Assembly: GCF_040938485.1 (NCBI RefSeq)
Contig: NW_027271097.1
Location: 248,001 to 312,000, forward strand
From: Diadema antillarum
Lineage: Eukaryota
Length of the DNA stretch: 64,000 nt
Direction: 5' to 3'
The notes beneath the pieces are model-generated. The model was given only the letters and a program-made list of their open reading frames with translations. It was not told the origin of the DNA and did not search any database. The position numbers and the translations under genes are program-made. Below, piece by piece: positions 4,220 to 23,143 of this stretch (position 1 is the first letter of the stretch; every line of letters starts with the position of its first letter).

Positions 4220-7200
4220 ATGATGATAGGGAAAACTTCGATTTGTGTGATGTTGGTTGTCTTGGCAACCGGGCTGCCGGGACGAGACGGCAAGATTACG
4301 TGCATGGATCCCAGTGGTAACCCTGTAGACTGGTGAGTTCAGATACTTTCGTTTTGTGTGACATTCTAGTATTTCATCTTAGATTTGCTGACAGTTTTAT
4401 CTAAGCTTATCCTATGTACATTAAACACACAGCTTTGACAGCTGTTTATGTGACTTCGCCCATCCTCTTGACCATTGGATATCTAACAATGATATAGATT
4501 GATAGTAATTTACAAGGATTTTTGGTGTACTGAAAGAGAAAGATTGGGAAGGACATGGAGGAAGTACGAGATGGAGAGAACAGTCTATTCTCAAACTACT
4601 CCTCTTTGAAACTTCAGGTTTATTGTCTACAAGCTACCTCGAGATTCAAAGAGCAGTGACCCGCTCATCAAAGAGGGCGTTGCTCACATGTACATGGATG
4701 TGAACAACCAGTTTTTCTCGCGGTCCACGGTCTCCCTCAAAGACACCAACCAGGCTGTGGCCCGAACTCTGCAGCAAATTTACAAGAATCACCAAAGTCA
4801 GGTAAAACTTTTCTCTCATAAATACAGATTCTCCCTCGTCAAATTCAAGATATATTCAGCTCAAGCCAACAAAATTAATGTTACTTTGTTCATATGCAAA
4901 TGTCATATTGTAGGCCTATACTTTCGTCGGATATGAAATAAAATAAAATAACTGAATGTATGTTGTATTCGGTAGCGTATGTGACAATTACGAATAACTA
5001 AGCAATTAAAAAACCTGAATTATAGACCTTTCAGAAATGTTCACTAATAAACAAACAAACAAACAAACAAACAAGTAGACAAGCACTCATAATTTTGTCT
5101 TGATCTTTAAACACGGACAACAATAATCCTAAGCGATGCTCTAGTGATGGTTAAAGCCCAAGTTTTGTGAAATGATCGAGAATTTGGAAATGCATACGCA
5201 ATCTCCGTTTTCACTTTCGCAGGAGACTTCTTGTATCTCAATGGATTAGACCACAGATTACCAGTCACGAGGTCCATGGTTCGAAAATTATAGCAAGTCA
5301 CTTTGTCCTCATTTGCCTATGTTTATAGTCCTTTGGAGGGAACTTAAAGGGGAAGGCTAGTAACTGATCAGTGGGAATCAGTGGAAATGCTGGGAGATGA
5401 TTGTTCCAATCCTTATGGGATTCATTCAAGAGTTCATTGTATATCTATTGTTGTGTGAAAATGATTTGCTTCAGAACGGTCTCATATTCAAGTAATGTGC
5501 AGATTAATGCTCCGTCACTGACCAGGGACGCTAACCTGGAAGCATTAAACTGCACATTACTTGAATATGAGACCATTCTGAAGCAAATCATTTTCACACA
5601 ACAATAGATATACAATGAACTCTTGAATGAATCCCATAAGAATTGGAACAATCATCTCCCAGCATTTCCACTGATTCCCACTGATCAGTTACTAGCCTTC
5701 CCCTTTAAAGCTGCAGGTCCTGTCCTGGTTACTTATAAGCATTAAATGATTCCTTAGCGGTCACATAAAACACAATCAATTCTAATCAATCAAAATAAGA
5801 AATCAATGTAAAGTCTAGGTAAAAATATTGTTTATGCTTTACTCTGAGGCATGTCATGTCTGTACTGCCATCATTATTTCAGATCTTGAATCGCATTCAA
5901 ATGTAATTGAGAGGTGGGGCATGGCCAGGAATAACCAAACACATTTCCTTTTCCTGTCGACTCAATATGAAGAGGAAACTTTCTGAAATACATACGTGCT
6001 AATGTACTTTAAACAATCTCGATCCATCTCTGTCCTAAAAACGCAGTAATGGCCCATACTCATATCAATCTTGATATTTGATTCCGAAATGGACTTCGCC
6101 ATATTTTAATCACTTTTTGTCACCTGAAACACATTAAAGTTCATAAAAACTACATTTAATATAACATAGCTTTTCCATGCCGTTTGATGTGCATAATCTT
6201 GGCAGCAGTGTCTGAAAGTGATCTACTTGTCTATTCCCGCTTTCCTTCATCCTATATGTTTCTATTTCACAGGATGTTGTGTATGTAATGTACAACGACG
6301 CGTTTCCAAATGGAAAGACCTACTCACGTGGGGGACAGACGAAAGGTAGGGACCAGTTTCATCTTGACATTTTCTTTCAATGTCATTCTCCGAATGAACC
6401 AGCATTTTGGAATCTCACCTTGGAATCAATACAGGCTGAAACATTCAATGCGTGAAATATTAGAATGATTATACAAAAACTGATACTTAAAGGTCATAAT
6501 TGGATTTGTTCAAGTGCTTGTTGACCAGTAACAATACCTTATGAATAGAAAGAATCCAACAAAACTTTCATTACTAATTCAGTTAGTTTGCTATCTAAAT
6601 GTCAACTCCAAGCATTGCACGTTATCAACTTAACAAGCTATCGGGTGTCCATCTTAAATTATATTTGGTATATGATACGACTTAGCGACCACGCCCCTCT
6701 GCTAGACTTATTTTGTAGATTTGGCAAGGATGTTGTCATCTTTTAAGGTGTGCTATTTTCTTTGATAGCTTCAGCAAGCAATTCTTCTTACAGGTGACCT
6801 TGCTTTCGATCAGAAATCGGGATTCTGGTTGATTCACAGCGTCCCGAAATTCCCGGATAACTCTGATCAGAGTTACGTGTGGCCATCTAACGCCGAGACA
6901 TATGGCCAGTCCATGCTGTGTATCTCCATGAAGACTTCAGAGTTCGTCAAAGTTGGTAATGTGAAAGGCTTTACATACACTCACTTGACTACTTGTGCTG
7001 GTGCTGCTAATTTGGTATTTGTGAGGACTATGTACCACATATCCGCAGTTACCACTACTGTATCTCCTCCTCTTTTTTCCCTTACAATATGAACTTCACT
7101 TGTGGGAAATTGAATACAACAATGCATTGAAGTCATCCTGATAGCAAACTTCTATGGTCACTTTAATGTTGAGAATGAGAGGGACGTTACGTTATCTTGA

Positions 7201-22338: not shown

Positions 22339-23143
22339 TGTGTTTAAAAAAATAACCAAATACCTGACATGTATTTTTCTGGAATCAAATACTAGTAAAA
22401 AGTTATATGTTTGCCATAGATCTGTACTCGCACTGGGTGGCACCTGCTTTAGGCGACGATATGTATGCCGAGACGTGGTTGAACGCGGCGAGCAAGCTGC
22501 CGTCTTTCTGCAGCGGTGTGTACAAGGTGGAAAATGTCGAGAATATCAATTTTGATGGCGTTCTCACCTTCAAGTCGACCAAGGACCATTCTAAATGGGC
22601 AATCAGCGAGCACAAGAAGTGGACTTGCATTGGTGACATTAACAGAACTGTAAGTAATCACATGATCCCATGTTTGTGTGTTTTGGAGTGTGTTTGGTTA
22701 GAAGGTGAAAAGGAGACAAACAATTAAGTGTGCATAAATCAAAAGTGTGAGTGACAACAAATAAAGAGCTGAAAAAAGCTGAAATCACAAAAGCTCCTAT
22801 ATTTTTGTAGAGAGGAAGTGCACAAAAAGCTGAAAATCAATTACACAGTAGATGAAAATCAAAATACATTAAAAACAACTTAAATCAGCTTTAACGCTGA
22901 ATTCTCACACCCCTGATAAAAAGGAAGAGTCAAACAGCATGTGTCTTCCTTACCGTCTAGCTTTATACATGTATCAACATTATTTGCAGTTAACCGTTTC
23001 GTTTCTCACCGCGTTTACTTCTTTGTTTTAAACAGAAAAGCCAGTATGAAAGGGGAGGTGGAACCGTGTGCTTAAACATTCCTGCTGTCTGGACTGCATT
23101 CCACACACTGATCGCCAAATTCTCACAGTGTCCCGCTCCATAA
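13412..23143 (+). CDS. DNASE2: Deoxyribonuclease II (plancitoxin-like), copy B, 356 aa; both HxK motifs intact
   Basis: Exons 13412-13527, 16080-16263, 17590-17662, 18686-18847, 20455-20652, 22420-22649, 23036-23143. All GT-AG, total 1071 nt. Motifs NPVDWFIVYKLP, YNDE, GGHTKG (His 17653-17655), WLIHSVPKFP, YGQS, KDHSKW (His 22587-22589), CIGDINR, SQYERGGGTVC. Internal exon lengths are identical to copy A. Confidence 0.95.
14153..15164. mobile_element. ~1-kb Tc1/mariner-type MITE with long imperfect TIRs and TA TSD, in intron 1 of copy B
   Basis: TA|CACTCAGCAAAAAA at 14153 and TTTTTTGCTGCATGAGTG|TA at 15164. About 300 bp at each end are recognisably inverted (e.g. atttctcatagaa/ttctatgagaaat; aatttaattggctat/atagccaattaaatt). 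Confidence 0.75.
17345..17511. mobile_element. Short palindromic MITE
   Basis: atctgggccccatttcataaaag...ctttttatgaaacggggcccagat, with inner arms gcaactcttgctagaatg/cattctagcaagagttgc. Confidence 0.8.
18024..18419. mobile_element. TTAA-flanked MITE (~390 bp), same family as 25178-25570, opposite orientation
   Basis: Starts ttaaagggat, ends atccctttcaa. Internal sequence matches the reverse complement of 25178-25570. Confidence 0.8.
18905..19112 (-). mobile_element. tRNA-derived SINE
   Basis: Minus strand reads tagcagtaagggcgtt...gggcccagattcgaacccggg (A/B-box-like), then cattcggataggacataaaatggaggttccgtg...gcacgtaaaagatccc, a body typical of marine-invertebrate SINEs. Confidence 0.55.
20799..21279 (-). 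mobile_element. CR1-type LINE 3' end with (GAA)n tail, antisense in intron 5 of copy B
   Basis: Translation SRGHNKRF...IFPDTIFPWNHLPQDVVNSTSLDIFKSKI resembles CR1 ORF2 C-termini, followed by a 3' UTR and a long (CTT)n run at ~20799-20860 on +. Confidence 0.75.
21280..21468. mobile_element. Small MITE-like inverted repeat
   Basis: agttctctagacacatccaaaagtt (21280-21304) versus aacttttggatgtttctagagaact (21444-21468). Confidence 0.6.
22304..22343. repeat. (GT)n microsatellite
   Basis: Directly visible. Confidence 0.95.

What the first reader, a model, noticed from the sequence alone, without database searches (positions are those of the whole stretch)
4220..23143. Active-plus-dead DNase II tandem pair as a possible two-component module
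Seen: the catalytically intact copy B and the His-less copy A are adjacent, co-oriented, ~3 kb apart, and about 80% identical in amino acids by my count. Established: an echinoderm DNase II (plancitoxin of Acanthaster) is a venom toxin, and DNase II clears engulfed DNA. Inference: A could be a competitive DNA shield or inhibitor of B, a self-protection factor or non-catalytic partner in a toxin, or a DNA-capturing opsonin in phagocytes. I do not know of a described system like this, but I cannot search the literature.
Basis: inference. Interest (0 to 1): 0.72.

Follow-up and report, generated by a model that had tools for sequence, protein, structure and literature searches.

The report
Sea urchin's preserved non-cutting DNase II
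One of six side-by-side copies of a DNA-digesting enzyme gene in a long-spined sea urchin has lost both of its cutting residues while the rest of the protein stays conserved, so it likely survives as a protein that holds DNA without cutting it, and nothing found ties it specially to the intact copy next door.

Summary
Observation confirmed. Copy A (7 exons, open frame) has Gln and Ser at the two catalytic His positions; B has both His; identity is 282/355. But A and B are the last two of a six-copy tandem DNase II array in Diadema antillarum. Their adjacency is inherited from a two-gene block duplication, and their upstream regions do not align. A is unlikely to be drifting. Both losses are on both haplotypes and in D. 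setosum (split 12-14 My). Of 65 family-conserved columns, only the two His changed specifically in A. Allelic dN/dS is 0.23-0.29 (p 0.0014-0.016 against 1), and divergence between species matches the active copies. Best reading: a selected pseudo-nuclease, likely a secreted or lysosomal protein that binds DNA without cutting it. An A-B two-component module or toxin partner has no positive support. Expression is not shown, and the D. setosum gene model is split in two. Inactive DNase II-like proteins are known from Trichinella, so this is a new variant: a clean natural double-His knockout beside 74-81% identical paralogues with intact motifs.

The parts
4220..4332 (+). Copy A exon 1 (ATG, hydrophobic signal-peptide-like stretch)
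4618..4801 (+). Copy A exon 2
6273..6345 (+). Copy A exon 3, first HxK motif read as GQTKG
6336..6338 (+). Gln121 codon CAG at the first catalytic His position
6794..6955 (+). Copy A exon 4 (HSVP kept)
7568..7765 (+). Copy A exon 5
8967..9196 (+). Copy A exon 6, second HxK motif read as DSSKW
9134..9136 (+). Ser300 codon AGC at the second catalytic His position (CAT in the other six alleles compared)
10302..10421 (+). Copy A exon 7 to stop TGA
13412..13527 (+). Copy B exon 1
16080..16263 (+). Copy B exon 2
17590..17662 (+). Copy B exon 3 with GHTKG (His codon 17653-17655)
18686..18847 (+). Copy B exon 4
20455..20652 (+). Copy B exon 5
22420..22649 (+). Copy B exon 6 with DHSKW (His codon 22587-22589)
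23036..23143 (+). Copy B exon 7 to stop TAA
2248..3695 (.). Non-LTR retrotransposon piece about 525 bp upstream of A's ATG, on this haplotype only
5344..5708 (.). 365-bp near-perfect palindrome in A intron 2, absent from the other haplotype

Best explanation
Copy A is a DNase II paralogue that has lost both catalytic histidines yet shows purifying selection, and it likely works as a secreted or lysosomal protein that binds DNA without cutting it, independent of copy B. Shown: the two substitutions, the intact frame and splice sites, the conserved remainder, the selection statistics, and the origin of A+B by block duplication. From established enzymology: without His113 and His295 equivalents DNase II cannot form or resolve its phosphohistidine intermediate, so A is predicted inactive. 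Inferred: the kept lysines, Asn, Arg, Gln and Trp of the cleft still grip the DNA backbone. A would then capture or shield DNA and compete for substrate with whichever active copy (D1, D2 or B) shares its compartment. That selection keeps A as a protein I put at about 0.8; that the job is DNA binding is less sure.
For: Only the two His differ specifically in A among 65 columns at least 90% conserved in 113 outgroup proteins. K44, K124, H139, W264, K303, W304, N319, R320, Q324, R327 and the six mature Cys are kept. Alleles differ by 14.5 synonymous and 10.5 non-synonymous changes, pN/pS 0.195, with no coding indel against about 6.7 expected from A's introns. Codon model: omega on the two His-less allele branches is 0.23 (exons 2-7, p=0.0014 against 1) and 0.29 (exons 3-7, p=0.016); A does not differ from background (p=0.46-0.54). 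D. setosum models carry GQTKG and DSSKW. A differs between species at 18-20 of 313 residues, active copies at 10-22, neutral simulation 33-69. AlphaFold2 gives pLDDT 93.9 and best match Burkholderia DNase II 5i3e, TM 0.78. PMC5449587 (passages): human H113 and H295 are essential, and H295 mutants still interact with DNA.
Against: No transcript or protein evidence for A was obtained. The D. setosum orthologue is annotated as two models (XP_072176524, XP_072176523) lacking about 14 residues at the start of exon 6, so it may be broken there. The array turns over: D3 is frameshifted, D4 lacks three exons, and D1 on haplotype 2 has a CG acceptor. Synonymous allele divergence (6.3%) exceeds intron divergence (2.5%), so omega may be biased low; against the intron rate the ratio is about 0.49 (p=0.01). 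Exon 2 looks homogenised between copies (A versus D1 2-3%). Only two alleles were seen. DNA binding is not shown. A retroelement sits about 525 bp upstream on this haplotype. The AlphaFold2 confidence reflects the family alignment and would be high for a recent pseudogene too.
Confidence: 0.55

Rival explanations
1. A is a selected pseudoenzyme whose job is not DNA binding: it binds a protein or cell surface, for example as a decoy for a nuclease inhibitor or as a non-enzymatic defence or spine-secretion protein.
For: Trichinella TsDNase II-7 has no DNase activity, yet its knockdown lowers invasion of gut cells (PMC10249883, passages). Diadematid spines are described as venomous (PMC12193733, passages), and Acanthaster secretes DNase II in spines (PMC10448888, passages). 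Fold-level conservation fits any binding role.
Against: The DNA-contacting cleft residues are all kept, which a surface-binding role would not need. The diadematid spine toxins in the review passages seen are small or non-protein. The Diadema array is not in the Acanthaster plancitoxin clade.
Confidence: 0.15
2. A is a dying duplicate in a birth-and-death array; its apparent constraint comes from recent loss of function, gene conversion from active copies and hypermutable synonymous sites.
For: Neighbouring D3 and D4 are broken. The D. setosum model is split. Exon 2 is homogenised. pS is well above intron divergence.
Against: Both His losses predate a 12-14 My split. Under neutrality the frame and splice sites would survive with P 0.0005-0.03 at 0.055 changes per site and 0-0.1 indels per substitution, or 0.04-0.19 at 0.025. 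A alleles group together in exons 3-7, where omega is still 0.29.
Confidence: 0.15
3. A and B form a dedicated two-component module: A binds or shields B and regulates its nuclease or toxin activity.
For: They are adjacent and co-oriented on both haplotypes, and orthologues of both lie on one D. setosum scaffold. Burkholderia DNase II crystallises as a homodimer, so a mixed dimer is conceivable. Dead paralogues that regulate active ones exist in other enzyme families (search listing).
Against: Adjacency is explained by duplication of a two-gene block, since upstream and intron DNA pair D3 with A and D4 with B at 77-83%. No upstream alignment was found between A and B over 2.5 kb. A is no closer to B than to D2 or D3. 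Animal DNase II is described as a monomer with an internal pseudodimeric site (PMC4148230; PMC9208542).
Confidence: 0.1
4. A is still an enzyme with changed chemistry, using the new Ser or the third conserved His on another phosphodiester substrate.
For: The second His codon changed at all three positions, the only multi-base change among 138 codons where the other six alleles agree. The HSVP His and both Lys are kept.
Against: Trichinella DNase II-like proteins, where His is replaced by Lys or Ser, tested inactive in the two cases read. A triple change can be one complex mutation.
Confidence: 0.05

Closest known systems
DNase II (PF03265; PLD superfamily; structure 5i3e, Burkholderia thailandensis)
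   Same: Pfam match in exons of both copies, predicted fold TM 0.78, signal-peptide-like N-terminus, cysteines and non-His active-site residues.
   Different: A lacks both HxK histidines; B has them.
Inactive DNase II-like proteins of Trichinella spiralis (TsDNase II-7, DNase II-8)
   Same: DNase II domain with His replaced by Lys or Ser, signal peptide, no nuclease activity in the two tested, and a non-catalytic role shown for II-7.
   Different: About 125 highly divergent genes in a parasite. A is a single copy in a free-living deuterostome, 74-81% identical to motif-intact neighbours, with the rest of the active site untouched.
Plancitoxin I of Acanthaster
   Same: DNase II family, tandem genes, echinoderm; RefSeq names the Diadema proteins 'plancitoxin-1-like'.
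   Different: 45-46% identity to A. It is a separate clade from the Diadema array, and all three Acanthaster proteins keep both His. No toxin data were found for the Diadema genes.
Lancelet DNase II paralogue with DKSKW
   Same: Conserved loss of a catalytic His in a free-living deuterostome, 8 of 8 cluster members.
   Different: Only the second His is lost and the protein is distant (35% identity); independent origin.
Prozyme-type dead paralogues (trypanosome AdoMetDC, deoxyhypusine synthase)
   Same: Catalytically dead duplicate retained beside an active enzyme (search listing and abstract starts only).
   Different: Those bind and activate their partner; no binding of A to B is shown.

Membership tests
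DNase II (PF03265) | Sequence match above the Pfam cut-off | tested here: met
   exon 6 scores 84.7 (A) and 91.8 (B) bits against a cut-off of 23
DNase II (PF03265) | Two-lobed PLD-type fold | tested here: met
   model of A matches 5i3e, E 4.4e-27, TM 0.78 (B not modelled)
Active DNase II | Two HxK motifs with His | tested here: not met
   A has QTK and SSK; B meets it
Active DNase II | Conserved Lys, Asn, Arg, Trp and Cys of the site and core | tested here: met
Active DNase II | Acid, cation-independent endonuclease activity | not testable with these tools
   needs an assay
DNase II (PF03265) | N-terminal signal peptide | tested here: inconclusive
   hydrophobic 9-residue window, mean 3.4 in A and 2.9 in B; no signal-peptide predictor was run
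Pseudoenzyme | Catalytic residues lost, fold kept | tested here: met
Pseudoenzyme | Purifying selection after the loss | tested here: met
Pseudoenzyme | Expressed as RNA and protein | tested here: inconclusive
   no RNA holder listed; only RefSeq models seen
Plancitoxin (venom DNase II) | Falls in the Acanthaster plancitoxin clade | tested here: not met
   Diadema array 96/99, with S. purpuratus 99/96; Acanthaster trio 100/100 among sea stars
Plancitoxin (venom DNase II) | Present in spine secretion and toxic | not testable with these tools
   no Diadema venom data on these genes found
Active/dead two-component module | Physical binding of the dead to the active paralogue | not tested
Active/dead two-component module | Shared regulatory DNA or a special pairing of A with B | tested here: not met
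   no upstream alignment of A with B; block duplication explains adjacency

The most novel reading that the evidence does not exclude
Diadema turned a DNase II into a dedicated DNA-capturing protein by selected removal of exactly the two catalytic histidines. It acts as an extracellular or phagolysosomal DNA receptor or shield that sets how fast its sibling nucleases destroy engulfed or trap DNA. This would be a first non-cutting DNase II with an immune or defensive role in a free-living animal.
Probability: 0.25. Interest if true: 0.72.

Novelty: new variant of a known kind. Interest (0 to 1): 0.45.

Why it matters
Inactive DNase II-like proteins are known from Trichinella, where they are so divergent that their job is unclear. 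Copy A is a natural double-histidine knockout with the rest of the site intact and near-identical motif-intact siblings as controls. That makes the question of what a non-cutting DNase II does directly testable. It is also a candidate substrate trap for the DNase II-DNA structure that PMC5449587 could not obtain. Finally, it warns that the 'plancitoxin-1-like' label covers genes that are neither shown toxins nor, here, likely enzymes.

Tried and rejected
Expression: no RNA holder was listed for window 6200-10800, so no reads could be laid; this is no evidence either way. Complex prediction of A with B was not available, so binding stays open. Assembly error for the His codons: rejected, since both changes are on the second haplotype and in D. 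setosum. C314 as a separate locus: rejected, both flanks are colinear at 94-96%. A further DNase II locus elsewhere: all 42 PF03265 matches (62 candidates scored) fall in this array on the two contigs (a lower bound). Uox synteny reported for DNase2b: the uricase hits are on another contig, C152, which does not exclude distant linkage. A as a recent copy of B: not supported by exon trees or the protein tree. The P=5.5e-5 for hitting both His and no other conserved column is post hoc, and active copies also spare conserved columns; I rely on P=0.013 for sparing the other 62. Earlier findings of this scan: nothing returned. MacLea 2003 (PMC1223339) was not held, so the H295 binding statement is second-hand from PMC5449587. 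No supplements were read.

Full report
Observation. Two co-oriented seven-exon DNase II genes lie at 4220-10421 (A, 359 aa) and 13412-23143 (B, 356 aa). All introns are GT-AG, there are no internal stops, and the gap is 2990 bp. Identity is 282 of 355 residues, dN 0.11, dS 0.36. Exons match Pfam DNase_II. A has Gln and Ser where B has the His of both HxK motifs. PMC5449587 (passages read) states that the human equivalents H113 and H295 are essential, proposes one as nucleophile and the other as water activator, and notes that H295 mutants still interact with DNA.

Organism and context. RefSeq proteins identical to the A and B models are named plancitoxin-1-like of Diadema antillarum. The window is G000:C209:248001-312000. 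Upstream lie four more co-oriented copies: D1 and D2 with open frames and both His, D3 with both His and a 1-nt shorter exon 2, and D4 lacking exons 3-5 with a frameshifted exon 6. Contig C314 is the other haplotype, with both flanks colinear at 94-96%. It has five copies, and its A allele carries the same two codons. All 42 PF03265 matches in the genome fall in this array, so the ordinary lysosomal enzyme is presumably D1, D2 or B (inference).

Why A sits next to B. Non-coding DNA pairs upstream-of-D3 with upstream-of-A (2.5 kb, 78%), upstream-of-D4 with upstream-of-B (2.7 kb, 79%) and D4 with B (2.2 kb, 77%). D3+D4 and A+B are thus two copies of one two-gene block. A's 2.5 kb upstream aligns with D3's, not with B's. 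Exon trees and the protein tree do not make A and B a supported sister pair. The 14 Diadema rows form one clade (96/99) next to two S. purpuratus proteins, apart from the three Acanthaster proteins (100/100) (34 rows chosen by me from the hits). Adjacency therefore needs no functional link, and the toxin name comes from similarity.

Is A maintained? (1) Both His columns are H in 113 of 113 outgroup hits. Of 65 columns at least 90% conserved, A departs at the two His and at F236Y, which all array members but D1 share. Among 140 further 50%-cluster representatives, 133 keep both His, 3 are cut short and 4 have a substitution: lancelet, Trichinella, a beetle and one unnamed protein. (2) All other listed site residues are kept. 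(3) Alleles of A differ by 14.5 synonymous and 10.5 non-synonymous changes, pN/pS 0.195; B 0.37, D1 0.23, D2 0.13. Against A's intron rate 21.5 non-synonymous changes were expected (p=0.01) and 6.7 indels against none seen (p=0.001). (4) A codon model written for this (GY94, F3x4, nine sequences, D3 exon 2 left out) gives omega 0.23-0.29 on the two His-less tip branches (p=0.0014 and 0.016 against 1) and 0.42-0.44 on A's stem. A does not differ from background. (5) D. setosum has both changes, in two models with consecutive accessions, XP_072176524 (GQTKG) and XP_072176523 (DSSKW), on the same scaffold as the other copies. PMC7299941 (passages) dates that split at 12-14 My and gives bindin dS 0.105-0.118. 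A differs between species at 20 and 18 of 313 residues; B 21 and 21, D1 10 and 15, D2 22 and 21. Neutral simulation gives 33, 52 and 69 for distances 0.05, 0.08 and 0.11, with P(20 or fewer) at most 0.005. (6) The second His codon changed at all three bases, the only multi-base change among 138 codons where the other six alleles agree. AlphaFold2 with a 140-row alignment gives pLDDT 93.9 and best match 5i3e; this is weak evidence because the alignment drives it.

Against. No expression data were obtained. The D. setosum model lacks about 14 residues at the start of exon 6, and I could not read that DNA, so that allele may be broken. Its direct adjacency to B is inferred from scaffold and accession order, not shown. 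Synonymous allele divergence exceeds intron divergence in all four copies, exon 2 is homogenised among copies, only two alleles were seen, and the neutral distance rests on one gene. The array contains dead copies, and this haplotype has a retroelement piece about 525 bp upstream of A.

Mechanism. Shown: sequence, selection and origin. From known enzymology: no catalysis. Inferred: A enters the secretory route, folds as DNase II and binds DNA through the kept cleft. It would then hold or shield DNA and compete with any active copy in the same place. Rivals are a protein-binding or defence role, a dying duplicate, a B-specific module and changed chemistry.

Comparison and novelty. Inactive DNase II-like proteins are in print for Trichinella: about 125 genes, His replaced by Lys or Ser, DNase II-7 and II-8 inactive, and II-7 knockdown lowering invasion (PMC4148230, PMC11287892, PMC10249883; passages). 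C. elegans CRN-7 contributes minimal activity, though residues around its active-site His are described as identical (PMC2752799, passages). Nine paper searches were run. In the listings seen (for example 40 of 66, 25 of 169, 30 of 279), no title or abstract start describes a His-less DNase II in a sea urchin; most subscription journals are not covered. PMC10448888, PMC12193733, PMC5012510, PMC9208542 and PMC6230719 were also read as passages. Verdict: a real and likely selected pseudo-nuclease, a new variant of a known kind; the two-component reading is unsupported. Interest 0.45.

Noticed in passing
P0156, P0272-P0278 (Branchiostoma): A lancelet DNase II paralogue has Lys in place of the second catalytic His (DKSKW) in 8 of 8 cluster members from several species: a second conserved candidate pseudo-DNase II.
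   Followed up: partly
window 2248-3695: 1.45-kb non-LTR retrotransposon piece (weak zf-RVT hit, A-run, 12-bp flanking repeat) present only on this haplotype, about 525 bp upstream of A's ATG.
   Followed up: partly
window 5344-5708: 365-bp palindrome with 168-bp arms, 98% complementary, in A intron 2; absent from the other haplotype and not found elsewhere in the fetched regions.
   Followed up: partly
G000:C314, about 1105.7-1112.8 kb: About 6 kb insertion in intron 6 of the A allele, with no open frame of 150 aa or more.
   Followed up: partly
G000:C314, about 1154.9 kb and 1123.5-1133.9 kb: D1 allele has CG instead of AG at the intron 4 acceptor, and RefSeq skips exons 5-6 there (P0022). 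The third copy looks like a D3-type 5' part with a D4-type 3' part; copy number is 5 versus 6 between haplotypes.
   Followed up: partly
window about 30.5-32.3 kb (-) and about 38.5 kb (-): SURF2 exons and a weak CDGSH iron-binding hit downstream of the array; a 486-aa open frame at 55755-57215 has no clear family.
   Followed up: no
G000:C152: Uricase exons appear twice on one contig, about 1.09 Mb apart, with near-identical scores; possible duplication or both haplotypes joined.
   Followed up: no
P0255, P0268: A flea beetle protein (DQSKW) and an unnamed one (DNSKM) also lack the second His.
   Followed up: no
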